Virus record (IMG/VR): IMGVR_UViG_3300037467_001324
Length of the DNA: 64,000 nucleotides
Strand: one strand, 5' to 3'
Source of the DNA: an uncultured virus (IMG/VR IMGVR_UViG_3300037467_001324)
Taxonomy: Duplodnaviria > Heunggongvirae > Uroviricota > Caudoviricetes
Shown here: in pieces, positions 1 to 63,502 of the stretch
Layout of the letters: every line of letters starts with the position of its first letter
Position numbering within the stretch: the stretch's first letter is position 1
Made by a program: the position numbers and the translations under genes
The notes under the pieces: generated by a model
The model's input: only the letters and a program-made list of their open reading frames with translations
What the model was told of the DNA's origin: nothing
Database searches by the model: none

Positions 1-887
1 GCACCTACGATGTGAAAATGCGTCGCTTCGAGCAGCACATCTTTCCGGAGATCGGTCGAAAAGACATTCGCACCATCGAACCGACCGAGATGCTCAAGGT
101 CATCCGGAAAATCGAAGAAAGAGGTGCGACGGACCTTCCGCGGCGAATGCGCGCCGACTGCGGCAGCATCTTTCGATTTGCGATCGCGAGCGGGTGGCAG
201 ACCCGAGATGCGACGGCGGACATCAAGGGCGCTCTCAAGAAGCAGAAGCAAGTCGAGCACAGAGCGTTCGTTCGACCTGCTGAGATTGGCGAGTTCCTGT
301 TGAAGCTCGAGGAGGACGACACCGAGCAGCAGGATACTAGGGACGCCCTGATGCTGACCATCTTAACCACAGTACGAACCGACGAGCTTAGGTTCGCTGA
401 TCGGCGCGAGTTCGAGGATATGGACAGCGACCGGCCCCTGTGGAGGATCCCGAAAGAGCGCATGAAAAAGCATCGCGAACACCTGGTTCCGTTGTCGAGT
501 CAGGCTGCGGCAATCGTCAAACGGCGCCTCGGCGATCTGCCGGAACGCCAGCGCTTACTATTCGGTCGACCGACGCGGAGCGGAACGATCAGCGAAAACA
601 CGATGCTCTATTGTCTCTATCGGCTCGGTTATCACAGCCGCGCGACTGTTCACGGGTTTCGGCGTACCTTCTCCACCATAGCCAACGAAGCGACGAAGGA
701 GGTTGAAGGCGAGGAGGTGCCAATGTGGCACCCCGATTGGGTCGAGCGCGCGCTCGCTCACGTTCCCGAGGATAAGGTTCGTGCCGCCTATAACGCTGCC
801 GAATATCTGCCGCAGCGACGCCGTCTGCTCCAGTGGTGGGCTGATTGGCTGGACGAGCAGCTCGAGCTGAAACGACTCGTTGGATAA
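1..887 (+). CDS. Tyrosine recombinase/integrase (P4-like), 5' truncated by the window
   Basis: Catalytic motifs R (VRTDEL), K (RMKK), HGFR, LAH, and Y (RAAYN). Confidence 0.95.
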   Translation, partial: TYDVKMRRFEQHIFPEIGRKDIRTIEPTEMLKVIRKIEERGATDLPRRMRADCGSIFRFAIASGWQTRDATADIKGALKKQKQVEHRAFVRPAEIGEFLLKLEEDDTEQQDTRDALMLTILTTVRTDELRFADRREFEDMDSDRPLWRIPKERMKKHREHLVPLSSQAAAIVKRRLGDLPERQRLLFGRPTRSGTISENTMLYCLYRLGYHSRATVHGFRRTFSTIANEATKEVEGEEVPMWHPDWVERALAHVPEDKVRAAYNAAEYLPQRRRLLQWWADWLDEQLELKRLVG

Positions 888-888
888 G

Positions 889-927
889 AAAAAGCCCTGG
901 CGGCGTGGGTTCGCGGCCAGGGCTTCT
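889..927. terminator. Stem-loop terminator after integrase
   Basis: AAGCCCTGGC (892-901) pairs with GCCAGGGCTT (916-925); A-run on the left side. Confidence 0.6.
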
Positions 928-1049
928 ATGTCATCAGTCCGGTGGGCTTCCGGATGCCAGCCATGCTTAGAGCATAACACCTCTCCCTTGTTGGCTCGGG
1001 CGCTTCTCTGAGCGTCCCATGCTGTTCCACCGACATAACAACATCGGGG

Positions 1050-1078
1050 TTGCAAATCAACTTTTGGTTGAGTAGAAC
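1050..1078 (+). promoter_or_regulatory. Sigma70-like promoter with a 19-bp operator in the spacer
   Basis: TTGCAA-N17-TAGAAC; AATCA-N9-TGAGT at 1055-1073. Confidence 0.6.
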
Positions 1079-1105
1079 CCCAAGCAGTTGATTAGGACGG
1101 GGCGG

Positions 1106-1348
1106 ATGACCGCAGAGCAACTGCTTTCAGAAGATGTTGAGTTCTGGCCGCTGGACACGGTGCTTCGCAAGGTCGGCCTGTCAAGGTCCGAGATTTACCG
1201 TCGCCAGCGCGACGGTAGCTTCCCCGCCTCAAGGAACTACCGCAACTCGAGCCGCCGATACTGGCTTTCAAGCGACGTCCGCCGCTGGCAAGCCGAGGAA
1301 CTGGCCGGCGCTCCGATTGGCGATGACGAGTTCGGGCTGATCGGATGA
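1106..1348 (+). CDS. AlpA-family regulator/excisionase
   Basis: VLRKVGLSRSEIYRRQRDGSFP...WLSSDV pattern; next to the integrase. Confidence 0.85.
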   Translation: MTAEQLLSEDVEFWPLDTVLRKVGLSRSEIYRRQRDGSFPASRNYRNSSRRYWLSSDVRRWQAEELAGAPIGDDEFGLIG

Positions 1349-3012
1349 GATTTGGCTCCGTGTGCTCAGGCGTTGAGGCCGCGAGCCTAGCTTGGTATCC
1401 TCTCGGTTGGCGCGCTGCGTGGCTGTCGGAAATCGACGCAGCTGCATCCGCGCTTCTCAAGCACCGCTTTCCGAATGTCCCCAACCTTGGCGACATGACT
1501 GCGATTGCGCCGATGATTGATGCGGGCATCGTTGAAGCTCCTGACATTATTGTCGGCGGCACACCCTGCCAAGGCTACTCGGTTGCCGGACGCCGCGGCG
1601 GTCTTTCGGATCCGCGCGGACAACTCACCCTCAGTTTCGTGGAGATTGCAGATGCTATCGACGACGCTCGTCGAGCAAACGGAGAGCCTGAGTGCGTCAT
1701 CGTTTGGGAAAATGTCCCCGGCGTCCTCTCGATGCGCGACAATTCGTTCGGCCATTTCCTTGCGTCGCTTGCCGGAGAAGATGATCCGCTCGAGCCACCA
1801 GGGAAAAAATGGCCGGACGCTGGTCTTGTGCTTGGACCCCAAAGAACAGTCGCGTGGCGATGCCTCGATTCCCAATTCTTCGGTTTGGCCCAACGACGCA
1901 AGCGTGTGTTCGTTGTCGCAAGTGCTCGTGACGGGTTCGATCCCGGAGAGATACTTTTTGAGTTCGACGGCGTGCGGCGGGATTCTCCGCCGAGCCGCGA
2001 AACGGGGCAAGAAATTGCCGGAACTCTTGATGCGCGCACTGAGGCGGGTGGCTTTCCCGGAACAGATGGTGCCTGTGCCAACCATGTCGTCCCCGCAGAT
2101 TTCGGAAATCGACTCACTAATCGGTTGAGTTCTGCCTTTGGCGGCGGCAACTGCAAAGGCCCAATTCCTGTCGCCACCGCGCTGAATGCGAACGAGAGGT
2201 TCGATTTCGACAGCGAGACTTTCATCGTCGAACCGCTGTGCGTCACGGATCCTGTGACGCACACGCTGACTGCCGAGGGCTTCGACGCGAGTGAGGATGG
2301 CACCGGTAGAGGGAATCCAATAGTGCCGATCGCCTTCACCGCGAAGGACTACGGTCAGGACGCAAGCGAAGATATTTCTCCGACGCTGAGGTCGGGCGGT
2401 CACGCCGACAGCCATGCAAACGGAGGCGTGATGCCCGCCGTCGCATATGGCTTTCAGCCGCGCATCGCTAGGAACGGTCGCGGTGACATGGGCGATGTCA
2501 TCAACGCGCTCACCGCCGAGGCAGGCACCACCGGCAAGGGCGACGCGGCACCGTGCGTTGCATACGCCATTCAGGAGAACCTGATTCATCACGAGGTCAT
2601 CCCGTTTGACACGACGCAACTGACGCATCCGGAGAACCGCAGCAACCCGCAGCCAGGCGACCCGTGTCACCCTCTCGCTGCGGCAGGCCACGCCCCGTCG
2701 ATCTGCGGCAGCAACATGGCAGTGCGGCGCCTGATGCCGGTCGAGTGCGAGCGGCTACAGGGCTTCCCCGACAACTGGACCCGGATCCCCGTCAAGTTTT
2801 TCACGACAAAGCAAGTCTCCAAGCTGAGACCAGAGGATATGTGGGAGGTGGGATTCGGGCCGAACGGTCGTCCCGGCTGGTGGCTCATGGCGGCGGACGG
2901 CCCTCGCTACAAGCAGTGCGGCAACTCGATGGCCCGTAACTGCATGGCCTGGATTGGCTGGCGTATCAAAGGTTGGCTCCAGCTCGAGCCGTTCAGGGAG
3001 TTGATCGGCTGA
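1345..3012 (+). CDS. DNA (cytosine-5) methyltransferase
   Basis: SVCSG motif I variant, GGTPCQ catalytic motif, ENVPG, QRRKR, RRLMPVECERLQGFP, RYKQCGNS. Confidence 0.95.
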   Translation: MRFGSVCSGVEAASLAWYPLGWRAAWLSEIDAAASALLKHRFPNVPNLGDMTAIAPMIDAGIVEAPDIIVGGTPCQGYSVAGRRGGLSDPRGQLTLSFVEIADAIDDARRANGEPECVIVWENVPGVLSMRDNSFGHFLASLAGEDDPLEPPGKKWPDAGLVLGPQRTVAWRCLDSQFFGLAQRRKRVFVVASARDGFDPGEILFEFDGVRRDSPPSRETGQEIAGTLDARTEAGGFPGTDGACANHVVPADFGNRLTNRLSSAFGGGNCKGPIPVATALNANERFDFDSETFIVEPLCVTDPVTHTLTAEGFDASEDGTGRGNPIVPIAFTAKDYGQDASEDISPTLRSGGHADSHANGGVMPAVAYGFQPRIARNGRGDMGDVINALTAEAGTTGKGDAAPCVAYAIQENLIHHEVIPFDTTQLTHPENRSNPQPGDPCHPLAAAGHAPSICGSNMAVRRLMPVECERLQGFPDNWTRIPVKFFTTKQVSKLRPEDMWEVGFGPNGRPGWWLMAADGPRYKQCGNSMARNCMAWIGWRIKGWLQLEPFRELIG

Positions 3013-3719
3013 TGTCTGCTACTGACGACGATGACATCGCCGCACTCATCGGAGGACACGGCTCGCAGCTAAAGCCGGATTCGCCACGCGAGGACACGCC
3101 CGATGAGGAGCGCGATCTTATCCTGAAACAGGTGGCGGGCGGCAAAGGTAGCTTTGTCGACGCCGGCGACCTCAAGCGCCCGGTCACTCAGAATTTCCTC
3201 GCCCAAGTGTTCGACATGGACCCTGCGACGGTTAAGAAACGTCTCCTTCGCGTGAAGCCGCTTGCCGAGATCGGTAAGGGCGTGCAGCCGCGCAAACTCT
3301 ACGATTTCAAGGAGGCAGTCGGATACCTCGTCGAGCCGAAGATCGATCTCGATGCGTACATCAAGTCAATCGACCCCCATAAGCTGCCGAACCACATCAA
3401 CAAATTCTATTGGGACGCGCAGTTAGTGAAGCTCAAGTTCATGGAGCGGGCGCGCGAGGCGTTTCTCGCTCCGGACATCCTCGCGGTGTTCGGTCGAGTT
3501 TTCATGCTCATCAAGGACCATGTCCAACTGTGGCCCGAGACTGCGCGCGATTCGCTGCGCCTCGACGACAAACAGACCGCAAAGCTCAAGCAGCTCGCCG
3601 ACGACCTCCAGAATGAGCTCTATAGTCGGCTGACCAAGCTGCCGGACGAGCAGGAAACGCCGAGCTACGCCGCCAAGTTCGAGGAAGGGACGGCACCCGA
3701 AGCCGAAGCTACGGAATGA
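3012..3719 (+). CDS. Terminase small subunit (gpNu1/DUF1441-like)
   Basis: N-terminal HTH-like segment, helical C-terminus, position upstream of TerL; ATG overlaps the upstream TGA. Confidence 0.75.
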   Translation: MSATDDDDIAALIGGHGSQLKPDSPREDTPDEERDLILKQVAGGKGSFVDAGDLKRPVTQNFLAQVFDMDPATVKKRLLRVKPLAEIGKGVQPRKLYDFKEAVGYLVEPKIDLDAYIKSIDPHKLPNHINKFYWDAQLVKLKFMERAREAFLAPDILAVFGRVFMLIKDHVQLWPETARDSLRLDDKQTAKLKQLADDLQNELYSRLTKLPDEQETPSYAAKFEEGTAPEAEATE

Positions 3720-5122: not shown

Positions 5123-7332
5123 CCTTCCACAGCATCGAAGCGATGGTGGTGGCCTCAGCAGAGGCAGTGCGGCCGCCTGAGCGCCTGACCGTCAGTCAGG
5201 CTGCCGAGAAATATCACATCGTCAACAACCCAGGCACGCACGTTGGGCCGTTCTCGAATGAGCGGACGCCCTACCTCGTCGAGCCAATGGACGAGCTGCA
5301 AAGCCTCGAGTTCACGGGCGAGATTTTCTGCGGTCCTGCGCGCTGCGGCAAGTCGGTCATGGCGCTTAATTGGTTAGCCTCGACTGCCATCTGCGATCCT
5401 GCGGACATGATGTTCGTAAACATGACGCAGAACACCGCCCGAGACTGGTCTCAGGGCGACCTCGCCAAGATGGTTCGCTACTCGCCCGAGGTGAAGCGCC
5501 GCCTGGTTCCGGGTCGGCAGAACGACAATGTCCACGACAAGCGCTTCCTGAGCGGAATGCGGCTGCTCATCAAGTGGCCGACCATCAGCGAACTCTCCGG
5601 CAAGACCATTCCGCGGCTGTGGTTGTTCGATCGCGACCGCATGGATGACAACATCGACAAGGAGGGCGACCCGTTCGACCTCGCAAGGAAGCGCGCGCAG
5701 ACCTACCGCCGCTTCGGCATGACCGTCGCTGAGAGTTCGCCAGGGCGGGAGGTGACAAATTCCAAGTGGTTGCCGACGAGTCCGCACGAAGCACCGCCGA
5801 CGACCGGTATCCTCGCGCTTTACAATCGCGGTGATCGGCGCCGCTGGTACTGGCGCTGCCCCCAGTGCAACGACCCGTTCGAGGGCGATTTCAAGCTACT
5901 CCGCTGGCCGCAGTTGCCCGATCCGATGGAGGCAGCGCAGCAGGTCGTCATGGAATGTCCTTCCTGCGGCTTCCCGATTCCACACGAGATGAAGCACGAG
6001 CTCAATCAGGGCGGTAAGTGGATCAAGGAAGGGCAGACTTGGGAAAAGGACGGCTCGGTGAGCGGGATCCCGAGGCGTTCCGACATTGCTAGCTTCTGGC
6101 TTAAAGGTCCTGCCGCTGCATTCATCAGCTGGCCCGAGCTTGTGCTGAAATACCTAAACGCCCTCGACGATTACGAGCGCACGGGCAGCGAAGAAGCCCT
6201 TAAGGTCACGGTGAACGTCGACCAAGGCTTACCCTACACCTCGAAATCGGCCGAAGCCGGTCGACTCCCCGATGAGCTGCGTGCTCGAGCTCAGCATTAT
6301 TCGGACAAGGGCGAGGTTCCACCAGGAGTCGGTTTCCTCGTAACGACCATCGACGTTCAGGCCGGTGGACGCCCATCGTTCGTTTGCCATACCTACGGCA
6401 TCGGACCAGGCGTTTCGCAGGAGCAGCTCGAGCAGGGTATCATTCCGCCAGCAGCCGACATTTGGCACGTCGATATGTGGAAAATCCGCAAATCTAACCG
6501 CATCGACACTGACGGCGAGCGCAAGCTCATCGATCCCGCCTCGTATCCCGAGGATTGGGATTGCCTGATCGATGAGGTGTTGCTGCGTACCTACCCGCTC
6601 TCGGATGGCTCAGGCCGGCACATGGCCGTCAAGATCGTGGCGTGCGACTCGGGCGGTGCCGCAGCGCAGGGGAACGCGAAGAAAAACGACAACAAGGATG
6701 GGCCGAAGGTCAGCGTTACCGCGAACGCCTATGAGTTCTGGCGCCGGTTGAAGCGCGCCGAGCGGGCTAACGGCGAAAAGATTCCGGCATCCCTCCATCT
6801 TCGCTTCCACCTCGTCAAGGGTTCGCCGAGCAACAGCGCGCCGGAGATGCACCGCACCTATCCGGACAGCGGACAGAAAGACCGGTTCGCGATCGCCCGC
6901 GGCGACGTTCCCGTCTATCTGGTGAACTCGAACAAGGTGAAAGATCGCACCAGCAACCTGCTCGGGCGCACCGACCCTGGCGGGCAGATTCATTTCCCCG
7001 TCTGGTATGACGAGAACGAGAAGGTGCTCGACATCGGTTGGCTCTACACGCAGCTGACGACCGAGGTCAGAACGGCGCGCGGATGGGAGAACCCGAGCCG
7101 TCGCAAGAACGAAGCGTTCGACCTTCTCGCCTACTGCATCGCCATCTGTCTTACGCAGCAGATACGTCTCGAGCACATCGACTGGACCAAGCCGCCGCCG
7201 TGGGCGAATCCCGATTGGGACAACAACGACCTGGTCATCAATCCGGTCGACCATGATGCGGCCGATGTTTTGGCCGGCGCGAAGCCAAATGATGACCCCG
7301 ACATCGAGGATTTGGCGGAGCAGCTCGGCTGA
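5119..7332 (+). CDS. Terminase large subunit (lambda gpA family)
   Basis: RTPYL, Walker A GPARCGKS, ESSP, CPQC/CPSCG zinc motifs, TIDVQ nuclease motif, RKNEAFD. Confidence 0.95.
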   Translation: MTFHSIEAMVVASAEAVRPPERLTVSQAAEKYHIVNNPGTHVGPFSNERTPYLVEPMDELQSLEFTGEIFCGPARCGKSVMALNWLASTAICDPADMMFVNMTQNTARDWSQGDLAKMVRYSPEVKRRLVPGRQNDNVHDKRFLSGMRLLIKWPTISELSGKTIPRLWLFDRDRMDDNIDKEGDPFDLARKRAQTYRRFGMTVAESSPGREVTNSKWLPTSPHEAPPTTGILALYNRGDRRRWYWRCPQCNDPFEGDFKLLRWPQLPDPMEAAQQVVMECPSCGFPIPHEMKHELNQGGKWIKEGQTWEKDGSVSGIPRRSDIASFWLKGPAAAFISWPELVLKYLNALDDYERTGSEEALKVTVNVDQGLPYTSKSAEAGRLPDELRARAQHYSDKGEVPPGVGFLVTTIDVQAGGRPSFVCHTYGIGPGVSQEQLEQGIIPPAADIWHVDMWKIRKSNRIDTDGERKLIDPASYPEDWDCLIDEVLLRTYPLSDGSGRHMAVKIVACDSGGAAAQGNAKKNDNKDGPKVSVTANAYEFWRRLKRAERANGEKIPASLHLRFHLVKGSPSNSAPEMHRTYPDSGQKDRFAIARGDVPVYLVNSNKVKDRTSNLLGRTDPGGQIHFPVWYDENEKVLDIGWLYTQLTTEVRTARGWENPSRRKNEAFDLLAYCIAICLTQQIRLEHIDWTKPPPWANPDWDNNDLVINPVDHDAADVLAGAKPNDDPDIEDLAEQLG

Positions 7333-7405: not shown

Positions 7406-7618
7406 ATGGCGGCTACTCAGGCGCAACTGGATGAAGCGGAAGCAGCTTACCACTCCCTCTGTATCGGCAAGGGGATGGTCGAGTTTCGCGATTCGAACGG
7501 CGAGCTGGTGCGCTACAATGTCGCGTCGCTGCCGCGGCTCGCGCAATACATCCAGCAGCTCAAAATTGAGCTTGGTGTGTCGACCTGCAATGGTCCGATG
7601 AGGCCGCTGTTTCAGTGA
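7406..7618 (+). CDS. Head-tail joining protein gpW-like
   Basis: LDEAEAAYHSL..G..V...NGELVRY pattern; lies between TerL and portal. Confidence 0.85.
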   Translation: MAATQAQLDEAEAAYHSLCIGKGMVEFRDSNGELVRYNVASLPRLAQYIQQLKIELGVSTCNGPMRPLFQ

Positions 7619-9366
7619 GCACCGGCGACCCGAACATCGACGCCCTGATCGGTCCGGCTTCCTCCGGACCCGTAGCCCTGCCCGGACCCTCGGCCCCCAC
7701 CAGTCCCGGAGCAGCGTCGCCCGTCCCGGTCGTACACCTCCCGGCGACGGGCGACGAGAGGGGCATGGGCGCGTTCGAGGGAGCCGACCGTTTCGATGCG
7801 GGCTTTGCTCTGTGGGGACCGTCCTTGGCATCTGCCGACGCGGACATCCTTCCTGACAAGCTACTCATCGACGCTCGTGCGCGCGACATGCTGCGCAACG
7901 ACGCTTACATCCAGGGCGGCGCTAACCTCCACAAGGACAACATCGTTGGAGCGCATTTCCTCCTGATGACGCGGCCCGCTACGCGGACGCTATTCGGCAA
8001 GGACGACGATGTTTGGGAGGAGGAGTTCCAGGCCGAGGTCGAGGAACTCGCAGAGCTTTTCTTCGAGTCGCCAGATCATTGGGTCGATGCGGCGCGCTCG
8101 AACACGCTGACGCAGCTCGTTCGCATGGCAGTCGGCATTCACCTGGCGGCCGGCGAGGTGCTTGCGACCGCCGAATGGGATCGTCAGGGAGCCAGCGAGT
8201 TCAACACTTGCATCCAGATGGTCGATCTTGACCGCCTGTCGACCGACCCGATGTCGCGCATCGACCCGAGCGTGCGCATGGGGATCCGCTTCAATTCGCG
8301 CGGGGCGCCGATGGCGTACCAAATCCGCACGCAGCACCCGCGCGACATCGTTTGGCGGACGACCCTTCCCGAGTGGAAAGAGGTTCCGCTGCGCAAGCCT
8401 TGGGGTCGCCTCCAGGTCATTCATCTCAAGGAGCAAGTGCGTCCCGAGCAGAGCCGTGGCATTCCGGAGATGGCGGCTGCGCTCAAGGAAATGCGGATGA
8501 GTCACTCACTCCGCGGCATCAACTTGCAGCAAGCCGTGGCTCAGGCGATTTTCGCCGCCGCCATCACCTCCGAGCTGCCGAGCGACACAGTGTTCCAGCA
8601 GCTCGGCGGCGGTGAGGCGACACCAGAGCAGGTTCAGGCCGCAATCACCAGTTACGCGCAGGGCTACCTCGGCGCGATTGGCAAGTATGTTGGCAAGGCG
8701 CGCGGCCTGACCATTGATGGCGTTCGCATTCCGCACCTCTATCCCGGCACCAAGCTCGATTTGCTGTCGCCGAAGGTCAATCCAACTCAAGGCACCACAT
8801 TCGAGCAGTCGCTGCTCCGCTACATCGCATCGACGCTCGGCGTATCTTACGAGCAGCTGAGCCGCGATTATACGAACACGAACTACAGCTCGGCGCGCGC
8901 CGCGATGACCGAGACCTGGAAATTCATGCAGGCGCGCAAGAAGCTCATCGCCGACCGCTTCGCCACCATTGTTTTCCGGCTGTGGCTCGAGGAGGCCATC
9001 AACAACGGCAAGCTGTTCAGCTTCCCGAAGAAGAAGGCCGGAATGCTCTATTCGGGCGGCGTCCTGAACACCGCATTCGACGCCATCTCGCGGTGCGAAT
9101 GGATTGGCGCTTCGCGCGGCCAGATTGACGAGCTCAAGGAGACTCAGGCCGCGATCGCCCGCATCGAGGCCGGTCTGTCGACCCGCGAGGATGAGCTTGC
9201 CCGCCTCGGCAAGGATTGGCGGAAAGTGTTCCGGCAGCTCGAGCGCGAGGAGAAAGAGCGCGCAGCCCGCAACCTTGTTTTCACCTCGGATACTGCACGG
9301 GCTGCGGGCGCTCAGGACAACCAGAACGCCGACAATCAGGACGGCGAGCAGAAGAAGGCCGCATGA
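7615..9366 (+). CDS. Portal protein (lambda gpB family)
   Basis: ARARDMLRND, EQSRGIP, GVSYEQLSRDY..NYSSARA, IDELKE. Confidence 0.95.
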   Translation: MSTGDPNIDALIGPASSGPVALPGPSAPTSPGAASPVPVVHLPATGDERGMGAFEGADRFDAGFALWGPSLASADADILPDKLLIDARARDMLRNDAYIQGGANLHKDNIVGAHFLLMTRPATRTLFGKDDDVWEEEFQAEVEELAELFFESPDHWVDAARSNTLTQLVRMAVGIHLAAGEVLATAEWDRQGASEFNTCIQMVDLDRLSTDPMSRIDPSVRMGIRFNSRGAPMAYQIRTQHPRDIVWRTTLPEWKEVPLRKPWGRLQVIHLKEQVRPEQSRGIPEMAAALKEMRMSHSLRGINLQQAVAQAIFAAAITSELPSDTVFQQLGGGEATPEQVQAAITSYAQGYLGAIGKYVGKARGLTIDGVRIPHLYPGTKLDLLSPKVNPTQGTTFEQSLLRYIASTLGVSYEQLSRDYTNTNYSSARAAMTETWKFMQARKKLIADRFATIVFRLWLEEAINNGKLFSFPKKKAGMLYSGGVLNTAFDAISRCEWIGASRGQIDELKETQAAIARIEAGLSTREDELARLGKDWRKVFRQLEREEKERAARNLVFTSDTARAAGAQDNQNADNQDGEQKKAA

Positions 9367-39539: not shown

Positions 39540-39964
39540 CCGATAAGCTCCATGTAATCGTCCTCACGAGGCGGCGTCGTTTCGGAGACGTTTTTCAGCA
39601 GAATTTCCTCGAGGCCGTGCGACACCGGGTCGCCTCGCTCGATCGCGTTCTGATAGGCTGCGATTACGGCTTCGACTGGCCCCTGTCCTGTGCCGCGACC
39701 GCGGAACTCCTGAATGTCGAAGCCGCCTTTGTCCTTGCCGACGCGGAAGGCGATCGCCTGATAACCGCGACCGCGCATTTTGTCGGTTACGGCTTCCTTG
39801 CTGTAGTCATCGTTGATCGGGTCGATGTCGTCGAAGAACAGCCCTTCACGGCCGCACGCCCGGTGGAACGCGACCCATCGGGGGTCACGCAGCAGCGCCT
39901 TCAATTTCTCATCCGCGCGCCAGAACATCGTGTTCTTGGAGCGGTGGCGCTGCCCCGTTTGCAT
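39536..39964 (-). CDS. Hypothetical protein
   Basis: Operonic ORF ending DDYMELIG. Confidence 0.65.
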   Translation of the reverse strand: MQTGQRHRSKNTMFWRADEKLKALLRDPRWVAFHRACGREGLFFDDIDPINDDYSKEAVTDKMRGRGYQAIAFRVGKDKGGFDIQEFRGRGTGQGPVEAVIAAYQNAIERGDPVSHGLEEILLKNVSETTPPREDDYMELIG

Positions 39965-56321: not shown

Positions 56322-56327
56322 GATTCG

Positions 56328-57214: not shown

Positions 57215-59713
57215 TCACCCGATGAGATCGGCTTCCTCGAGCGGCGTCACCCTGACATAGGTGCGCTGCCGACCGTAAGCGCCGTGAACGACAGGACTCG
57301 CCTGCTGCCAACTGGACGCGATGGCAGCCTTTGACATGGCGCGCGCGATCGCTTGCTGGTTGGCAGCTGTGTAGCTGCGTAGATCGCCGCGGAGACACTC
57401 GACCCAAATCTGCGGGAGGCACACCTTGTCGCGGTAGCGCGGCTTCTGGTCCTTATCGAGGTCGTCGAAGCCGCCATCATTGATCGGTGCTGCCAGCCAG
57501 GCAGCAATGACGCCGGCCATCCCATCGTCGCTCGTTTCCATGCGACGTGATTCTTGAAGCCCTGCGGCAATGGCGCGCGATTCATCGTCGCGCAGATGCA
57601 GCGGCAGCGTGCCAACGGGTTGAGCAGCCCGCATCTGCCGGTAGAACAGCACTGCCTCAGCCCATAACTGGTCGACATTGCGCTCCAGCTTCGCGGTATC
57701 GATCTCAGCGACGTGGCACGGCATCGGCCAGAAGCGGCGGCCGCCCGTGTCGTCCTTGAGATATTCGCGGTCGTTGGTCGAGCCGATGAAAATGCACTGC
57801 CGCGGGAACTCGCCGGCGCGACGGGCATAGGCGAGGCGCGCGCGGTCCTTCTTGCGGCTGATGAACGCCTTGATGGCGCGCACGTCCGACCGCTGGAAGC
57901 CGGTCAGCTCCGGCAGTTCGAGGATCCACGCGCCCTGCATTAGCTCGATCATCATTTTTGGGTCGTGGAAATCGCCGTCGAGCTCGGCGAACCACTTGCG
58001 GCCGAGTATCTCGATGAAGGTCGACTTGCGCTTGCCTTGGAGACCCTCGAGGATGACGGCAAAATCGAACTTGTGGCCGGGTTCGAAGATGCGTGTAACC
58101 GCGGCAGTCATCATCAATCGCGCGATGTCCAGTGTGTACGGGTTCGGCTCCGCGGCGAGATAGTCGACGAACAGGCGCTCGACGCGCCGCGTGCCGTCCC
58201 ATTTGAGGCCGTTGAGGTACTCACGCACCGGATGAAAGGCGTGGTCGTTCGCCGCAATGACGATCGCCGCTTTGAGATCGCGGTCTGACACCTTGATGCC
58301 GTAACCGCCCTGGGTCCGCGGCGCTTCGATCAGCGCCCGCATTGCGAAATCACGGTCGTCGGACCACAGGCTGCCATTCAGCGGGTCGGCGACGTCCCAA
58401 ATGCGGCCCTCGAGCTGCACAACAGGCTTCGCCTGGTTCTTGCGCCGCGGTTCCTTGTAGCCGGGCGAGATGCGCTGGACGGTCTCCTGTGTGAACTCAT
58501 TGATTTGCGCGAGGCCGACGAACCGAGGGTCGTTGCGGACGATCAGTTTGACGTTGTGAAGGGTCGGCCGGAACGCGCCTTCCTCGTTCACCTCCATCAG
58601 CGAAATCCACCCGAGACCGGCCTCGGCGCCGGCAGCGAGCACGGACTCGAAATCGTTCCCGGTGGATGGTCCGCCGATCAACGCATCGATGTCGTCGTCG
58701 GCTTCCTCCTCATCCTCATCCTCGTCGGCACCTGGCTCATCGTCGTCGATGTCGTCGAAGGCCTGGAACATCCGGACCTGGTTGGCGACCGCCTTGAGCG
58801 TTGCCATGCGCACGGAGTTGGGTTTTTGACGGAAGCTGTTCCAGACGACTCGCTGGTCCTTCTCGTCGAATTTCGCCGACTGCTCCGAGAACTCCTTCCA
58901 GATGTCATAACCGATCTCGTCGCCGCCGAACTCGTGGTGCAGCGCCATGCCGACCGTCAGCCAACCGTCGCGATCCTCGCAGTATTCCTCGATTGGCAGA
59001 TCATCGAGGATAGCTTGAGCCTCGTCCTCGGTGAGACCGAGCGGCGGCTTTAGGTCGAGGCTGTCCGCGGATGCCGCGTTGTCGAGCATCCCCAATTCTT
59101 CAAGCCGTGCGGCCGGGATGCGTGGAAATAGCCCGAGCATGAGCTCGTCGAGATCGACAGCACGTTCCCAAAGATAAGGTTTGCCCGTGTCGGGGTGAAT
59201 CGACGGCGGCATAGCAACTTGCTTGCCGGTGCCGAACAGCTCGATTTCCCAATCGCGTTTCTTGACCTCACGCCCGAGCTTCTCATCATAGACCATCTTG
59301 AAGGTCTCGCTGCGGGCGAGCTTCTTCGACGGGAACGCCTTCTCACAGGCAAAATAATAGTGGCGCGACGGTCCGCCTGATCCGGAGATGACGCTCGGAA
59401 CGCTGTCGGCGATCGCCGGAAACAGCTCGTCGAGTTTTGCGCGAGCCTCGTCAGCGTAAGCAGGATCGCGGATGTCCAGGTCGATGGCATGGAGGTAGGA
59501 GCCATCCACCAACTGCGAGACCTCGCCGAGGCGCACGCCGACATTAACGCCGGGCGAGTGCCGTCGCCGAAGCTGCTCGAGCGTGGCGACCGGCTTGGTT
59601 GACCAATCCTCGCCGATAGGGCGCTTCGATTTGGGATGCAGCCAGTGAATCGCAAAGCCGGCCTCACGGAGAGGGCCGATTTCTGCCAACACCTGTTCGT
59701 CAAAGGCAGTCAT
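57215..59713 (-). CDS. Bifunctional primase-polymerase/PriCT-2/VapE-type helicase
   Basis: SKRP…W, NVGVRLG, IDLD, HYYF, PPSIHPDTG; WLTVGMALHHE; Walker A GLQGKRKST; GSTN..YLKDDTGGRRFWP. Confidence 0.93.
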   Translation of the reverse strand: MTAFDEQVLAEIGPLREAGFAIHWLHPKSKRPIGEDWSTKPVATLEQLRRRHSPGVNVGVRLGEVSQLVDGSYLHAIDLDIRDPAYADEARAKLDELFPAIADSVPSVISGSGGPSRHYYFACEKAFPSKKLARSETFKMVYDEKLGREVKKRDWEIELFGTGKQVAMPPSIHPDTGKPYLWERAVDLDELMLGLFPRIPAARLEELGMLDNAASADSLDLKPPLGLTEDEAQAILDDLPIEEYCEDRDGWLTVGMALHHEFGGDEIGYDIWKEFSEQSAKFDEKDQRVVWNSFRQKPNSVRMATLKAVANQVRMFQAFDDIDDDEPGADEDEDEEEADDDIDALIGGPSTGNDFESVLAAGAEAGLGWISLMEVNEEGAFRPTLHNVKLIVRNDPRFVGLAQINEFTQETVQRISPGYKEPRRKNQAKPVVQLEGRIWDVADPLNGSLWSDDRDFAMRALIEAPRTQGGYGIKVSDRDLKAAIVIAANDHAFHPVREYLNGLKWDGTRRVERLFVDYLAAEPNPYTLDIARLMMTAAVTRIFEPGHKFDFAVILEGLQGKRKSTFIEILGRKWFAELDGDFHDPKMMIELMQGAWILELPELTGFQRSDVRAIKAFISRKKDRARLAYARRAGEFPRQCIFIGSTNDREYLKDDTGGRRFWPMPCHVAEIDTAKLERNVDQLWAEAVLFYRQMRAAQPVGTLPLHLRDDESRAIAAGLQESRRMETSDDGMAGVIAAWLAAPINDGGFDDLDKDQKPRYRDKVCLPQIWVECLRGDLRSYTAANQQAIARAMSKAAIASSWQQASPVVHGAYGRQRTYVRVTPLEEADLIG

Positions 59714-60219: not shown

Positions 60220-60780
60220 ATGAGCATTGAAACAGCGTTGGCGGAACTGACCGCCGCCGTGGTTGCCAATACGGCGATCCTGGAGAAACTCGAAGCCGGA
60301 CGCGAAGCAGCGCTTGCGCAGCTCGAGGCGAAGGGTGAAACCAAGACAACCCGAACTCGTAAGCCGAAGGCCTCCGACGATAGTGCAGGGGATGCGGCGG
60401 GAAACGCCAGCGGCGCCGAAGGTGCAAGCACGGGGTCTCAGGCGGGCGGTGCCACAGCTGCTGTTAAGAGCACCGCGCCGACCGCCGACGAGGCGCTCGT
60501 TCGCCAAGTCGCCACTGACTACATCAAGGGCGCCGGCGACAACGCCGAGGAACGCAAGGCGCGCGCAGGCAACATCAAACGCATCACCGATCATTTCGGA
60601 ACCGCGGCGCTAGCCGGCGACAACGGCATCAAGGACGCAGAGCAACGCGCCCAGGCGGTGTTCTACCTCAAGCGGTATGATGCTGGCCTCGAGGTCAATT
60701 TCAGCGCCGAATATGACTTCACCGGCGACCCCACCCAGGGCGCCGCGGAAGCGGAGGATTCGTTCGACGGAATCGGCTGA
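60220..60780 (+). CDS. Hypothetical replication-module protein
   Basis: MSIETALAELTAAV N-terminus, low-complexity linker; GAGGAG RBS. Confidence 0.75.
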   Translation: MSIETALAELTAAVVANTAILEKLEAGREAALAQLEAKGETKTTRTRKPKASDDSAGDAAGNASGAEGASTGSQAGGATAAVKSTAPTADEALVRQVATDYIKGAGDNAEERKARAGNIKRITDHFGTAALAGDNGIKDAEQRAQAVFYLKRYDAGLEVNFSAEYDFTGDPTQGAAEAEDSFDGIG

Positions 60781-60806
60781 CGAATCACTAACTTAGGGAG
60801 TCCAAG

Positions 60807-61569
60807 ATGGACCAGAACACGCTTACGAACAAAGAGAAGGCGATCATCTCCGCCATCAGTTCGGCAGTTACAGGTGGCGTTGGCTACGGTCTGCTGCCGC
60901 CCGGTACGCCAGAGGTCGTCAGTCTTATCGGCGCTGCCGTGCTCGCTGTGACGGCTGCGGTTTACGCCGTGAAGCATCTTCTCAATCCGACCGCGTAACT
61001 CGATGGAACCGACCATCGAAATCACGCGCTCGAAGCTCATCGCTGCGCTGGCGCAGTGGGAGGCGGACAGCAAGGCTAACAACTGGCCTGAGCGCGCCGA
61101 CGAGGAGCGTCACGCGGACAACGCGGACTACCTCCTCGAGCTGATGGGCGTGAATTGAGATGGGCGCCGCCATCTCCGCTGAGGTGGCCGAGCAGCGAGC
61201 TCGGGAGATGGCGACGCTCGACCCCGCCGACCGCGATGTCCGCATCGTGTTCGGTATCCTCTCAGGCGTGGTGACTGACGGGCGCTCGCGGTTCGCCGCG
61301 GGACGGCCCGTCAGCATCGCCGCGAGGTGCGCATGAACCGGGAACTTAATCCCTGCACAGATTGCCCGTTTCGGGCTGAACTGAATATCGAGCACGCAAT
61401 GCTGCGTTCGCAGGTCGAAGCCGGTCAATGGGTTCCCTGCAAGAACACCCTTCGAGCTCCTGCTGACGGCAGCTTCCAGGCGAAGATCGAAGCCTGGCGA
61501 CAGGAGGAAGAATGCGCTGGCGCTCGGATGTGGCGGCGTGATCGACAGCTGCCCGCTATCGCCGCGTGA
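60807..61569 (+). other. Four small genes (60807-60998 membrane; 61003-61158; 61160-61336; 61333-61569 Cys-rich)
   Basis: Contiguous + strand ORFs; PCTDCPFR motif in the last. Confidence 0.55.
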
Positions 61570-62750
61570 TCGCACACGCGAAACTGTCGCCCTCCGGCGC
61601 TGACCGATGGATGGTCTGCCCCGGTAGCGTTGCCGCCGAGGAAGGCCTCCCCGACGAAACCAGCGAGGAAGCCGCCGAAGGCACCTTCGCGCACATGATT
61701 AGCGAGGACTGCCTCGCGCTAGGCTTGGACCCTTACGATTTCATCGGTCACCGAGCTACCGTCGAAGGCCATTCATTCGAGTGGGACGAGGAGGACGCAG
61801 ACAACCTCGCGTTCGGCATTTCGCAGATTCGCTCGTTCGGTGGGCAATTGTACGGCGAGCAGCGCGTCGATCTCACTCACTGGCTTGGCGACGATCAGTT
61901 TGGCACACTGGACCGCGCAATCATTCTGCCCGACCTCATCGTCATCGACGACCTGAAATGGGGTCGCGGGATCCCGGTCAGCCCGGTCGAGAACCGACAA
62001 CTGTCGCTATATGGACTCGGCTTCTGGCGTGACATCGCCCGCCATCAGACCAACGCAACTGATTTCCTCATCATCATCGATCAGCCCCGATGCAGTGGCG
62101 GCGGAGGCGAATGGCGGACGACACTCGATCAGCTGCTCGCGTTCGGCGAGGAAGCGCGCGGTGCCGCTGAGCGTACCCGCGATCCCAACGCACCGCGCGT
62201 CGCGAGCGAGAAGGGGTGCCGCTTTTGCAAGCGCCGCGAAGCACCCGGTGGATGTTCGACGCTCGATATGTTCATGCTCGATTTGTTCGGAAAGCAGTTC
62301 GACGACCTGGACGACGAAATTATGGTTGGCGGACCAATGGAGCTGCCGGTCGTCGTTACGCCCGAACGCAGGAGCTTCATTCTCGATAACCGCAAGCTGT
62401 GCGAATCGTGGTTCGACAAGCTCCATGCTCAGGCGCTCGATGATGCGCTCCACGGGCGCCCATGCGGCGGCAAGAAAGCAGTCGAGGGCCGCAAGTTGGC
62501 CGACAAATGGAAGAACCTAGACGACGCTGACATCGCGCTCCTGCTGATGCTCGGCGACGGCCGCCACAATCTCAAGCTCAAGACACCGACTCAGGTGACG
62601 AAAGAACTCAAGCTCAAGGACAACATTCCGCCTGAGCTGGAGCAGCTGATCGAACGCGGACAGCGAAAGCCGACGCTCGTCAGCGAGCAGGATGCTCGAC
62701 CTGCAATGCTGATTAACCTCGAGCAGATGTTCGACGACCTGGACACTTAG
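61566..62750 (+). CDS. DUF2800 Cas4-like PD-(D/E)XK nuclease
   Basis: HAKLSPS..RW..CPGS, EGT.AH, FGTLD, DLKWGRG, QL.LY, CRFC. Confidence 0.9.
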   Translation: MIAHAKLSPSGADRWMVCPGSVAAEEGLPDETSEEAAEGTFAHMISEDCLALGLDPYDFIGHRATVEGHSFEWDEEDADNLAFGISQIRSFGGQLYGEQRVDLTHWLGDDQFGTLDRAIILPDLIVIDDLKWGRGIPVSPVENRQLSLYGLGFWRDIARHQTNATDFLIIIDQPRCSGGGGEWRTTLDQLLAFGEEARGAAERTRDPNAPRVASEKGCRFCKRREAPGGCSTLDMFMLDLFGKQFDDLDDEIMVGGPMELPVVVTPERRSFILDNRKLCESWFDKLHAQALDDALHGRPCGGKKAVEGRKLADKWKNLDDADIALLLMLGDGRHNLKLKTPTQVTKELKLKDNIPPELEQLIERGQRKPTLVSEQDARPAMLINLEQMFDDLDT

Positions 62751-62803
62751 GCCAACGGACAACCGACGCAACCGACATCACCGAGAAAAACCAGGAGTTT
62801 GAA

Positions 62804-63502
62804 ATGAGTGAAGCACCGAAGCCCGCCGATCCGCGGACAGTTCGCCTGAAAATGGTGAGGCTGTCCTTCACGGATTCGCTCAAGGACAAGAAGGCTACCG
62901 TCGAGAACGGCACGCCCAAGCACAGTTGTAACCTCATCGTCGTGCAGACGCCCGGTGAGGACAAGTTGTCGCAACAGGCCGCAGCCCTGTATAAGGACAA
63001 CCTCGCCAAGATTCAGTCGGCCATCAAAGCAGCCTGCATCGAGCAGTGGAGCAAAGAGGACACCTGGAAGGAAATCCAGGAGGATAGCCCGAAGCGGCTT
63101 TGCTTCCGCAAAGGCGAGCGGTTCAAGAACAGCGATGGCGAGGTCTATAAGGGCTACGCCGGCAATTGGGGCATCAGCGCCAGCGGCCCGAAGGGTGGCG
63201 AGCACCGTCCGCTGCTGCTCGATCGCTACAAGCGCCAGGTCGAGGAGAAGGACATCCTCGAGGTGATGGCGGGCGGCTACTACGGCGATGTCGTCGTGTC
63301 GTTCTTTGGCACCGATAAGGGCGGCAAGGGCTTGTTCTGCTCGGTCGAAGCCATTCGATCGCGCCAGGAAGGCGAACGCCTTGGCGGCGGGCCGCGCGCG
63401 AGCGCCGACGATTTCGACGATCTCGACGACGACGATTCGTTCAGCGGCACCGCTGCTGGCGGCAGCTCGTCGGGTGGCGACGATTTCGACGGCATCGGCT
63501 GA
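62804..63502 (+). CDS. ssDNA-binding protein (DUF2815/T7 gp2.5-like)
   Basis: VRLSF, GE, GERLGGG, acidic tail DDFDDLDDDD. Confidence 0.88.
   Translation: MSEAPKPADPRTVRLKMVRLSFTDSLKDKKATVENGTPKHSCNLIVVQTPGEDKLSQQAAALYKDNLAKIQSAIKAACIEQWSKEDTWKEIQEDSPKRLCFRKGERFKNSDGEVYKGYAGNWGISASGPKGGEHRPLLLDRYKRQVEEKDILEVMAGGYYGDVVVSFFGTDKGGKGLFCSVEAIRSRQEGERLGGGPRASADDFDDLDDDDSFSGTAAGGSSSGGDDFDGIG

What the first reader, a model, noticed from the sequence alone, without database searches (positions are those of the whole stretch)
860..63502. Shared acidic-x-x-L-I-G peptide tag at the ends of many unrelated phage proteins
Seen: eight proteins end exactly in LIG-stop: AlpA (DDEFGLIG, 1348), C5 MTase (FRELIG, 3012), MT-A70 (DPLLELIG, 33802), Dam-like (NEIESLIG, 34410), SEC-C (DLIERLIG, 35036), 35317 ORF (DDLADLIG), 39536 ORF (DDYMELIG) and primase (EEADLIG, 57215). 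Variants end the integrase (LKRLVG), TerL (DIEDLAEQLG), 12732 ORF (DDAAAAIG), 60780 ORF (EDSFDGIG), SSB (DDFDGIG), ThyX (DLADVIGAQHL) and 61158 ORF (DYLLELMGVN). The motif also occurs at N-termini or in linkers: TerS (DDDDIAALIGG), portal (DPNIDALIG), Dam-like (DIDALIG), primase linker (DDDIDALIGG). Codons vary (CTG/TTG/CTC/CTT; GGA/GGC/GGG/GGT), which points to protein-level selection. The tag is concentrated on DNA-acting and packaging proteins and is absent from the termini of capsid, tail tip and lysis proteins. Inference: a short linear motif docking many proteins on one hub (replisome or packaging factor, protease/chaperone adaptor, localisation scaffold) or a C-terminal Gly conjugation/stability tag. 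I know of no description of it.
Basis: partly seen in the sequence, partly recalled or inferred. Interest (0 to 1): 0.88.

Follow-up and report, generated by a model that had tools for sequence, protein, structure and literature searches.

The report
Shared docking tag on phage proteins
About fifteen unrelated DNA-handling and DNA-packaging proteins of this phage carry the same short acidic peptide ending in Leu-Ile-Gly at one end, a portable label that selection keeps in many related phages and that one still unidentified partner presumably reads.

Summary
In 86 called genes, 8 of 22 LIG tripeptides lie exactly at the C-terminus (0.10 expected). Four more copies (I-[AD]-A-L-I-G) lie at the N-termini of TerS, portal and the Dam-like methylase and in the primase linker.

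The signal is at the protein level:
- Against a 70-83% identical relative (G002), the three tail codons show 7 synonymous and 1 conservative change. The nine codons before them show 13 synonymous and 28 non-synonymous.
- Other relatives keep the tail behind non-overlapping stops.
- 62 of 120 MT-A70 homologues end hydrophobic-hydrophobic-Gly.
- 26 of 30 TerS homologues start with the motif.

The stop/start overlap (GGRTGA) explains only the choice of Gly codon.

The cap differs between related phages on many proteins at once: LIG here, [IV]LG, LLG or LLV elsewhere. The portal copy aligns with the cleaved leader peptide of lambda gpB.

My best reading is a helical docking motif on disordered ends, an enlarged version of the T7 and T4 shared-tail systems. 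The reader protein was not identified. I found no published description. Earlier notes of this scan describe the same phenomenon in Chi-like relatives.

The parts
1322..1345 (+). C-terminal tag DDEFGLIG of the AlpA-like regulator/excisionase (gene 1106..1348)
   Evidence: identical peptide in G002 with 3 synonymous changes upstream
2986..3009 (+). C-terminal tag EPFRELIG of the C5 DNA methyltransferase (gene 1345..3012)
   Evidence: GGC to GGT synonymous change in G002
3024..3056 (+). N-terminal tag DDDDIAALIGG of the small terminase (gene 3012..3719, residues 5-15)
   Evidence: 26 of 30 database homologues and 22 of 33 prophage homologues carry it
7627..7653 (+). N-terminal tag DPNIDALIG of the lambda-family portal (gene 7615..9366, residues 5-13)
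   Evidence: short helix (res 6-11) in an otherwise low-confidence 68-residue leader; aligns with the lambda gpB leader TLLGP
33805..33828 (-). C-terminal tag DPLLELIG of the MT-A70 methyltransferase (gene 33802..34413)
   Evidence: 62 of 120 best homologue clusters end hydrophobic-hydrophobic-Gly
34413..34436 (-). C-terminal tag NEIESLIG of the Dam-like methyltransferase (gene 34410..35039)
35004..35027 (-). N-terminal tag LDIDALIG of the same Dam-like methyltransferase (residues 5-12)
   Evidence: G002 has LDIEALIGG at the same place
35039..35062 (-). C-terminal tag DLIERLIG of the 94-aa Cys-rich (SEC-C-like) protein (gene 35036..35320)
35320..35343 (-). C-terminal tag DDLADLIG of an 89-aa ORF (gene 35317..35586)
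39539..39562 (-). C-terminal tag DDYMELIG of a 142-aa ORF (gene 39536..39964)
57218..57241 (-). C-terminal tag LEEADLIG of the primase-polymerase/VapE-type helicase (gene 57215..59713)
   Evidence: EEIDVIG in G002
58670..58699 (-). Internal tag DDDIDALIGG in the acidic linker between the primase and helicase halves (residues 339-348)
   Evidence: conserved in G002. In RHph_X2_30 and AchV4 the tblastn match to this protein covers only its N-terminal 36-38%, although the RHph gene is itself 810 aa
861..884 (+). Variant tail QLELKRLVG of the integrase (gene cut at window start, ends 887)
   Evidence: RIIG in G002; DLLG on 4 of 20 prophage integrases
7306..7329 (+). Variant tail IEDLAEQLG of the large terminase
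   Evidence: a family-wide L-A-x-x-L-[GA] end; may be a separate, older motif
12706..12729 (+). Variant tail GDDAAAAIG of the ORF that follows the capsid gene (lambda FI position)
   Evidence: the ORFs at this position end GEDLLG, GENALV and GEEDI in three relatives
60754..60777 (+). Variant tail AEDSFDGIG of the 186-aa ORF that heads the replication block
63476..63499 (+). Variant tail GGDDFDGIG of the gp2.5/Enc34-type SSB
   Evidence: residues 195-232 have low confidence in the fold
38647..38679 (-). Near-terminal copy DLADVIG(AQHL) of ThyX
61126..61155 (+). Near-terminal copy DYLLELMG(VN) of a 51-aa ORF

Best explanation
The peptide is a portable short linear motif. It has an acidic run, then hydrophobic-x-x-[LIVM]-[ILF]-Gly, and is predicted to form one short amphipathic helix capped by Gly on a disordered end or linker. 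In this Casjensviridae-like phage of an alphaproteobacterium it is attached to at least 12, and with variants about 18, otherwise unrelated proteins that act on phage DNA. These are the integrase, the AlpA-like regulator, three methyltransferases, the primase-helicase, SSB, small early proteins, the small and large terminase, the portal and the ORF after the capsid gene. Shown: selection acts on the peptide and not on the DNA; the motif works at either end of a protein; the tail recurs on homologues from many other sources (metagenomic protein clusters, prophages, isolated phages); and its cap differs from phage to phage on many proteins together. Inferred: all copies plug into the same groove of one phage-encoded partner. 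Replication, DNA modification, integration/excision and packaging enzymes would then be held at one place, as the acidic tails of T7 gp2.5 and gp4 are held by the T7 DNA polymerase. My candidates are the family-A DNA polymerase (the T7 precedent, and the one replisome protein without a tail) and the large terminase (its three known lambda partners Nu1, B and FI are exactly the head-module proteins tagged here).
For: Enrichment: 8 terminal LIG against 0.10 expected in the window, and 7 against 0.095 in the relative G002. In 79 unrelated phage loci that encode Dam homologues there are only 14 such ends, at most 2 per locus. Protein-level selection: for the 8 orthologous pairs of window and G002, the last 3 codons are 16 identical, 7 synonymous and 1 non-synonymous (L to V). 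The preceding 9 codons are 31, 13 and 28 (Fisher p = 0.005 on the changed codons). Independence from gene overlap: RHph_X2_30 has D[IV]LG ends followed by TGA or TAA and a gap. Portability: N-terminal, linker and C-terminal copies occur. 62 of 120 MT-A70 homologue clusters end hydrophobic-hydrophobic-Gly and 17 more end acidic hydrophobic-hydrophobic-X. 26 of 30 TerS homologues carry the N-terminal copy. In prophage relatives the counts are TerS 22 of 33, portal 27 of 64, integrase 4 of 20 and AlpA 2 of 8. Cap changes in step: x-[LGV]IG here and in G002; D[IV]LG on 6 proteins of RHph_X2_30; D[LI]LG on the ORF in the SSB position and on the exonuclease, primase and two other ORFs of DSS3-P1; and tails ending in V (LLV, LFV, LIV, ALV) on 9 proteins of RcMcDreamy. 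In 70 polymerase-anchored loci the tails likewise differ from locus to locus (DLF, DDI, DDL, LLG, LLV); in some loci two or more proteins share the cap, in others the exonuclease keeps its own FDDLD-type end. Disorder: the portal residues 1-68 have pLDDT under 50 except a helix at 6-11, which is the motif. The SSB tail has low confidence. Precedents read in papers: T7 gp4 tails on gp5 basic patches (PMC12593628, passages); acidic tails of T7-type SSBs including Enc34 (PMC5686142, passages); interchangeable hydrophobic-acidic C-terminal clamp-binding motifs of T4 gp43, gp33 and gp55 (PMC2988020, passages); lambda A-Nu1, A-B and A-FI interactions (PMC3224144, passages).
Against: No partner has been shown, so the common reader is inferred only from sharing and from the cap changing in step. 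The motif may be two systems. In RHph_X2_30 the replisome proteins end in DDDI while methylases, small ORFs, portal and TerS use D[IV]LG. In RcMcDreamy the C-terminal tails end in V while the portal N-terminus keeps DLLG. The portal and TerS N-terminal copies are nearly constant (xLLG or xLIG) across very distant relatives including lambda. That fits a conserved head-assembly contact better than a fast co-evolving hub. The N-terminal enrichment by the loose pattern is weak on its own (3 against 0.67). The gene calls are my own codon-bias caller and not a curated annotation.
Confidence: 0.6

Rival explanations
1. Nucleotide-level junction element: CTSATCGGRTGA is kept because it carries the ribosome-binding region and the overlapping start of the next gene (translational coupling), and the peptide is a by-product.
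For: Seven of 8 LIG stops overlap the next start as GG[AG]TGA and the eighth as TGATG. GAG, GGAG or GAGAGG lies about 8 nt upstream of several of these starts. The tail Gly codons are GGA or GGG in 7 of 8, while GGC makes up 57% of Gly codons in the genes. Two junctions share about 20 nt.
Against: The Leu and Gly codons drift synonymously while the peptide stays. RHph_X2_30, the G002 primase and both SSBs keep the tail with non-overlapping TGA or TAA stops. The same peptide occurs at N-termini and inside the primase, where no start follows. Late-gene ATGA overlaps in the same window end in other residues. 62 of 120 MT-A70 homologue clusters from many contigs end hydrophobic-hydrophobic-Gly.
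Confidence: 0.04
2. Head-assembly address or protease-docking signal: the motif is the ancestral lambda-type portal leader element, read by the S49 protease/scaffold or the procapsid. Other proteins that carry it are drawn into procapsids or trimmed, like the capsid-targeting sequence of T4 internal proteins (recalled).
For: The lambda gpB leader (22 residues, annotated as removed) contains TLLGP at the place of ALIGP here. [quoted passage not shown] An S49 protease gene follows the portal gene. TerS, TerL, portal and the ORF after the capsid gene all carry the motif or a variant.
Against: Terminase subunits, SSB and the primase-helicase act outside the capsid and in bulk. No virion proteome is available here. 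Polymerase-anchored loci whose head genes I did not examine also show shared acidic-hydrophobic tails on replication proteins.
Confidence: 0.1
3. The reader is a host hub and not a phage protein, for example the beta sliding clamp, GroEL (which lambda portal assembly needs) or another conserved host factor. The phage tags its proteins to borrow it.
For: The DLLG form is nearly constant in prophage relatives from several alphaproteobacterial genera and some other MAGs. Placement at termini or in linkers is typical of clamp-binding motifs (recalled; review PMC11139829 seen only as a search listing and abstract). Lambda portal needs GroES/EL (PMC3224144, passages).
Against: The C-terminal cap differs between related phages, which a conserved host pocket would not favour. 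There is no Gln at the position that defines bacterial clamp motifs (recalled consensus). In three host genomes the pattern D-hydrophobic-hydrophobic-G-TGA is near its control count in two (6 against 4; 4 against 3; 11 against 1). The clear gene ends among its hits are an integrase and an AlpA-like gene inside the prophage-derived loci and two ORFs on the same contig as one of them. So I see no sign that host proteins use this tail; only TGA stops were tested and the other hits were not annotated.
Confidence: 0.12
4. There is no common partner. Each acidic tail folds back on its own protein's DNA-binding surface as a DNA mimic or autoinhibitor, or the tail is a degradation signal.
For: Nearly all carriers bind DNA. 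The T7 gp2.5 tail competes with ssDNA for its own binding surface (a title in the reference list of PMC5686142). In the Enc34 crystal the tail lies on a neighbouring molecule, and removing it changes DNA selectivity (PMC5686142, passages). A hydrophobic C-terminus can act as a degron (recalled).
Against: Unrelated folds would not all demand the same hydrophobic-hydrophobic-Gly cap, nor change it together between phages. The tag sits on stable, essential late proteins (portal, terminase). N-terminal and internal copies lack a free carboxylate.
Confidence: 0.08

Closest known systems
Phage T7 acidic C-terminal tails of gp2.5 (SSB) and gp4 (primase-helicase), read by basic patches of gp5 DNA polymerase
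   Same: There is a gp2.5/Enc34-type SSB and a primase-helicase, each with a disordered acidic tail ending in a hydrophobic tip, next to a family-A polymerase gene that has no tail (PMC12593628 and PMC5686142, passages).
   Different: Here about 12-18 proteins carry it instead of two, including methylases, integrase, regulator and packaging proteins. The tip is hydrophobic-hydrophobic-Gly and not a terminal Phe (the T7 tip is recalled). Copies also sit at N-termini and in a linker.
Phage T4 sliding-clamp-binding C-terminal motifs of gp43, gp33 and gp55
   Same: A short hydrophobic and acidic terminal peptide is shared by unrelated proteins, can be interchanged, and links replication to another process through one hub (PMC2988020, passages).
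   Different: No clamp family was detected among the 88 window proteins or the 6 further G002 proteins scanned. There are many more clients. N-terminal copies exist.
Lambda gpB (portal) N-terminal leader peptide
   Same: It is the same portal family (Phage_portal_2). The motif hydrophobic-x-x-L-[LI]-G-P lies within the first 13 residues, ahead of the Pfam domain. An S49 protease gene lies downstream.
   Different: In lambda the leader is cut off and it is not known how that affects the portal's interactions (PMC3224144, passages). Cleavage here is untested. In lambda I saw only loose look-alikes on other head proteins (Nu1 and gpC C-termini).
Bacterial SSB C-terminal tip (DDDIPF) and beta-clamp-binding motifs (QL[SD]LF)
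   Same: They are acidic or hydrophobic terminal peptides that plug into a pocket. Two polymerase-anchored relatives have ORFs ending DDIPF and DEIPF.
   Different: For SSB one tail meets many readers, whereas here many tails presumably meet one reader. The consensus differs (no Q, no IPF). Both consensus strings are recalled and not taken from a call.
Earlier notes of this scan on Chi-like (Casjensviridae) phages: shared acidic tails ending -EV, -DV, -I or -L
   Same: It is the same virus family and the same set of client types, and the cap changes together across clients (notes e1-249347, e1-174210, e1-5982020 and others; AI notes, used as leads).
   Different: This branch uses a hydrophobic-hydrophobic-Gly cap. 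It adds N-terminal and linker copies, integrase and AlpA clients, the lambda leader link and database-wide counts for MT-A70 and TerS.

Membership tests
T7-type shared acidic C-terminal tail system | gp2.5-type SSB with a disordered acidic C-terminal tail | tested here: met
   PF10991 Enc34_ssDNA-bd, E 7e-18; phrog_112 Gp2.5-like; residues 195-232 mostly pLDDT under 50
T7-type shared acidic C-terminal tail system | Replicative primase-helicase with an acidic C-terminal tail | tested here: met
   Prim-Pol + PriCT_2 + VapE-like protein ending LEEADLIG
T7-type shared acidic C-terminal tail system | Tail tipped by an aromatic residue (terminal Phe; recalled) | tested here: not met
   The tips are LIG or GIG
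T7-type shared acidic C-terminal tail system | Tails bind basic patches of the family-A DNA polymerase | not tested
   The polymerase gene is cut by the window end (63563..64000). The polymerase job could not be placed and my one complex job went to TerL + TerS
Sliding-clamp-binding motif (bacterial beta or T4 gp45 ligands) | A clamp is available as reader and encoded by the phage | tested here: not met
   No clamp family among the window proteins scanned against Pfam and PHROGs, nor among 6 G002 proteins from the part missing in the window. A host clamp remains possible
Sliding-clamp-binding motif (bacterial beta or T4 gp45 ligands) | Consensus QL[SD]LF / QLxLxL with Gln at position 1 (recalled) | tested here: not met
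   The motif is acidic-hydrophobic-x-x-[LIVM][ILF]G with no Gln preference
Sliding-clamp-binding motif (bacterial beta or T4 gp45 ligands) | Location at extreme termini or in flexible linkers of DNA-acting proteins | tested here: met
C-terminal Gly conjugation tag (ubiquitin-like, Pup-like) | A free C-terminal Gly is required, on a small modifier fold, with an activating enzyme nearby | tested here: not met
   The motif is also internal and N-terminal. The carriers are enzymes of unrelated folds. In relatives the last residue is V, A, S or I. No E1-like or ubiquitin-like family was found
Translational-coupling junction element | The stop overlaps the next start | tested here: met
   7 of 8 GG[AG]TGA, 1 of 8 TGATG
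Translational-coupling junction element | Conservation is at nucleotide level and not at peptide level | tested here: not met
   7 synonymous against 1 non-synonymous change in the tail codons; tails behind non-overlapping stops in relatives
Lambda-type portal leader peptide | N-terminal segment ahead of the Phage_portal_2 domain containing hydrophobic-x-x-L-[LI]-G | tested here: met
   The domain starts at residue 65. The motif is at residues 8-13. Lambda has TLLGP at residues 8-12 of its annotated 22-aa leader. See also alignment A4
Lambda-type portal leader peptide | The leader is removed by the head protease during maturation | not testable with these tools
   Needs N-terminal sequencing or mass spectrometry of virion portal

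The most novel reading that the evidence does not exclude
One phage-encoded reader (large terminase or DNA polymerase) binds the same helical address label on some fifteen proteins. Integration/excision, DNA methylation, replication and packaging would then be physically coupled on one tool-belt. The long-unexplained cleaved leader peptide of lambda-type portals would be the oldest copy of this label, acting as a built-in ligand or plug that is removed when the procapsid matures.
Probability: 0.25. Interest if true: 0.85.

Novelty: new variant of a known kind. Interest (0 to 1): 0.68.

Why it matters
If one reader binds all these tags, this phage group organises its whole DNA metabolism through a single short peptide-pocket contact. 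That covers integrase, methylases, replisome and packaging motor, and is far broader than the two-protein T7 case or the three-protein T4 case. The tag is short, transferable and easy to test by pull-down, tag swap or deletion. It could serve to find the hub, to predict which orphan phage proteins belong to the DNA-handling machinery, and to give the cleaved lambda portal leader a function. It also matters for annotation: the tag marks true gene ends and starts. Here it fixed the start of the Dam-like gene.

Tried and rejected
1. Complex prediction. Large terminase (alignment A6, 41 rows) plus TerS residues 1-34 gave the verdict 'no answer' (score 0.00, controls not run). This is not evidence for or against binding. 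Two earlier designs were never accepted because the queue was full, so the polymerase was not tested: G002 DNA polymerase alignment A2 with the primase linker, and A2 with the primase C-terminal tail.

2. Single-chain folds as a proxy for docking in cis. The SSB tail and the portal leader are not packed on their own bodies in the models. This is uninformative about binding in trans.

3. Column-by-column association between the tip of the SSB tail and polymerase residues. Only 11 nearest-neighbour pairs were available, at 47-100% identity (the only 100% pair has the same cap), and few were informative. Abandoned.

4. Finding the window's own record. No whole genome is held and there was no exact match in viral contigs. 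G001 is an identical 18.7-kb fragment and G002 a 68-kb relative.

5. First genome-contig scan with TerL alone found nothing. The alignment-based scan worked.

6. Alternative-frame ORF 1517..2128, which also ends SLIG in both phages. Rejected as a gene: frame 0 has 36 synonymous and 53 non-synonymous changes, the alternative frame 16 and 70. Frame 0 holds the methylase motifs at both ends.

7. Host-wide use of the tail. I saw no sign of it in three host genomes. Only TGA stops were tested and most hits were not annotated.

8. Rfam and tRNA scans of the window. There are no tRNAs and one sub-threshold chance hit.

9. Literature. Six full-text searches listed no paper whose title or abstract describes a shared tag of this kind in Casjensviridae or lambda-like phages. 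I read passages of four papers only. Supplements were not consulted.

Full report
**What the window is.** The window is about 64 kb of a roughly 69-kb tailed-phage genome with 61% G+C.
- It has a lambda-type head module: gpA-type terminase, gpW, Phage_portal_2 portal, S49 protease and E-type capsid protein.
- Its replication block matches Chi/Enc34-like phages: Prim-Pol/VapE primase-helicase, DUF2800 exonuclease, Enc34/gp2.5-type SSB and the start of a family-A polymerase.
- It also encodes four DNA methyltransferases, ThyX, a GapR homologue and an integrase with an AlpA-like gene.
- TerL and primase searches place it near Casjensviridae phages of alphaproteobacteria: Rhizobium phage RHph_X2_30, Ruegeria phage DSS3-P1 and the Rhodobacter RcMcDreamy group.
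- No whole genome is held. G001 is an identical 18.7-kb fragment. G002 is a complete 68-kb relative, 70-83% identical in DNA and syntenic.

**The observation.** All eight LIG-stop ends exist at the stated places.
- Among 974 six-frame open frames, LIG is the commonest terminal tripeptide (10). Eight are genes and two are alternative frames. One of those two (1517..2128) I showed not to be under coding selection.
- In 86 called genes there are 22 LIG tripeptides, and 8 are terminal against 0.10 expected.
- G002 repeats the pattern: 94 genes, 20 LIG, 7 terminal against 0.095 expected.
- In 79 unrelated phage loci that merely share a Dam homologue, the looser pattern (acidic, then hydrophobic-hydrophobic-Gly-stop) occurs 14 times in all, at most twice per locus. 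The window has 11, and 13.6 kb of G002 has 5.
- The Dam-like gene starts at the GTG that overlaps the preceding LIG stop (35039), so its DIDALIG is N-terminal.

**Peptide or DNA?** Seven of the eight stops overlap the next start as GG[AG]TGA and the eighth as TGATG. An acidic codon often supplies GAG about 8 nt upstream. This explains why the tail Gly is GGA or GGG in 7 of 8 although GGC is 57% of Gly codons in the genes. So the tail does double duty at overlapping junctions. It is not the cause, for these reasons:
- Between window and G002, the last three codons of the eight genes are 16 identical, 7 synonymous and 1 non-synonymous (Leu to Val). The nine codons before them are 31, 13 and 28 (Fisher p = 0.005 on changed codons).
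- RHph_X2_30 has six proteins ending D-[IV]-L-G (two with one more residue) whose stops are TGA or TAA followed by a gap.
- Both SSBs and the G002 primase keep the tail without an ATGA overlap.
- The same peptide occurs where no start follows.
- Late-gene ATGA overlaps in the window end in other residues.

**How widespread it is.**
- Of the 120 best cluster representatives homologous to the MT-A70 methylase (57-100% identity), 62 end hydrophobic-hydrophobic-Gly. Two more have that 1-4 residues from the end, 17 end acidic hydrophobic-hydrophobic-X, and 39 are 'other', several of which visibly carry F-x-x-L-L near the end.
- Of 30 TerS homologues, 26 start with D-I-D-A-L-I-G-G-like peptides by my pattern. 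One more has it just outside the pattern, and one is a truncated form.
- In 79 prophage or MAG loci anchored on TerL, the motif opens 22 of 33 TerS and 27 of 64 portals. It closes 4 of 20 integrases and 2 of 8 AlpA-like proteins, and 0 of 72 TerL by the strict pattern. Hosts named in the records include Bradyrhizobium, Mesorhizobium, Gemmobacter, Asticcacaulis, Shimia and Sphingopyxis.
- Host chromosomes show no sign of using it. The pattern D-hydrophobic-hydrophobic-G-TGA is near its control in two of three genomes. The clear gene ends it hits are an integrase and an AlpA-like gene inside the prophage-derived loci and two ORFs on the same contig as one of them. Only TGA stops were tested.

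**The cap changes in step.** Within a genome the tips agree across unrelated proteins, and between genomes they differ.
- Window and G002: x-LIG, with GIG on SSB and on the 186-aa ORF that heads the replication block.
- RHph_X2_30: D[IV]LG on a methylase, four small ORFs and a 229-aa ORF, and at the N-termini of portal, TerS and a PAPS-reductase-like protein. The ORF in the SSB position, the primase and the ORF in the position of the window's 186-aa ORF end DDDDI, DDDI and DDEI.
- DSS3-P1: D[LI]LG on the ORF in the SSB position, the exonuclease, the primase-helicase, a 203-aa ORF (stop at 54473) and the ORF after the capsid gene, and at the N-termini of portal and TerS.
- RcMcDreamy: tails ending in V (ELLV, GLLV, ALLV, DLFV, GLIV, NALV, DALV) on nine proteins, including two methylases and the integrase. 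The portal starts with DLSDLLG.
- In 70 loci anchored on the polymerase, the tails again differ from locus to locus (DLF, DDI, DDL, LLG, LLV). Two loci have ORFs ending DDIPF and DEIPF. The exonuclease often keeps its own FDDLD-type end.

This is the pattern expected if one pocket reads many tails. It also hints at two classes: a rather constant N-terminal portal/TerS form and a fast-changing C-terminal form. In this window both take the same spelling.

**Link to lambda.**
- The portal alignment (41 sequences) shows hydrophobic-x-x-hydrophobic-L-G at the extreme N-terminus across the family, including enterobacterial members.
- Lambda gpB begins MKTPTIPTLLGPDG, inside the 22 residues annotated as a removed leader.
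- A curated review of lambda interactions says that this peptide is cut off and that its effect on the portal's interactions is not known. It lists A-Nu1, A-B and A-FI as terminase contacts (PMC3224144, passages).
- Here TerS, the portal and the ORF at the FI position are exactly the head-module proteins that carry the tag. This makes the large terminase a candidate reader.
- By the T7 precedent the other candidate is the DNA polymerase, the one replisome protein without a tail in all five genomes (PMC12593628, passages).

**Structure.** In the AlphaFold2 model of the portal (mean pLDDT 76.9), residues 1-68 are below 50 except a short helix at residues 6-11, which is NIDALI. In the SSB model (mean pLDDT 84.0) the core is confident and residues 195-232 are mostly below 50. 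The tags therefore sit on flexible segments, as short linear motifs do. The pattern hydrophobic(i), hydrophobic(i+3), hydrophobic(i+4), Gly fits one amphipathic turn with a Gly cap (inference).

**What remains open.** I cannot say whether the N-terminal and C-terminal forms share a reader. I also cannot say whether the portal leader is cleaved here, or whether any tagged enzyme enters the capsid.

**Novelty.** Shared terminal docking peptides are known for two T7 proteins, three T4 proteins and the bacterial SSB tip. A label on about fifteen proteins that spans integration, modification, replication and packaging, at either end of the protein, was not described in anything my six searches listed. 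Earlier notes of this scan report the same phenomenon with other caps in Chi-like phages. This report adds the hydrophobic-hydrophobic-Gly branch, the N-terminal and linker copies, the lambda leader link and the database-wide counts.

Noticed in passing
window 12364-12732 (+): The ORF after the capsid gene (lambda FI position; no family hit) has five tandem GNGDDA repeats just before its AAAAIG end. A sub-threshold Rfam miRNA hit (12619-12687) falls on these repeats and is chance.
   Followed up: partly
window 1517-2128 (+), inside the C5 methylase gene: An alternative-frame ORF of 203 aa also ends SLIG-stop, and does so in G002 too. Substitution counts favour frame 0 (36 synonymous, 53 non-synonymous) over the alternative frame (16, 70), so it is probably not a gene.
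   Followed up: yes
window 1345-3012 (+): The C5 methylase matches the Pfam model only at positions 1-160 and 270-300, with a long, poorly conserved insert between (22-57% identity to G002 over residues 201-320). This looks like a large, fast-evolving target-recognition region.
   Followed up: partly
window 33794-33813 and 35028-35047 (-): Two gene junctions share about 20 nt (CTCATCGG[AG]TGAACGCGCCG). The downstream proteins both begin M/V-N-A-P. This may be a trace of junction recombination or may be chance.
   Followed up: no
window 61566-62750 (+) and relatives: The DUF2800 exonuclease ends in its own motif, F-D-D-L-D-[TD]. In relatives the end is FDDL(D/N), FDEID, FEDLD or FEDFDD; in some loci (for example DSS3-P1) the exonuclease carries the local shared tail instead. 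This looks like a third terminal motif.
   Followed up: partly
loci L141 and L151 (polymerase-anchored viral contigs): ORFs there end DLGDDIPF and DPDDEIPF. This is the tip I recall for bacterial SSB, which suggests some relatives copy the host SSB tail. I did not identify the proteins.
   Followed up: no
TerS homologues P0121-P0148; window 3012-3719: Many TerS homologues carry a second conserved acidic element, TPQ[DH]E[IV]D, some 20-30 residues after the N-terminal tag.
   Followed up: no
locus L264 (lambda 191-5737): Lambda Nu1 ends ..ALDELIPGLLSEYIEQSG and gpC ends ..AVNDLLNTPV. Both loosely resemble the tag. The Nu1 C-terminus is the known gpA-binding part.
   Followed up: no
window 35932-36183 (-): A phage GapR homologue sits just upstream of the run of four consecutive LIG-ended genes. 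In RHph_X2_30 an ORF with the same N-terminal sequence (17229-17513) lies in the same position and ends in an acidic tail (EDDDDGEV).
   Followed up: no
G002 33273-33608 (locus L085 13273-13608, -): A 111-aa ORF beside the superfamily-2 helicase gene, in the part of the genome missing from the window, ends EQALLIG. It has no Pfam hit.
   Followed up: partly
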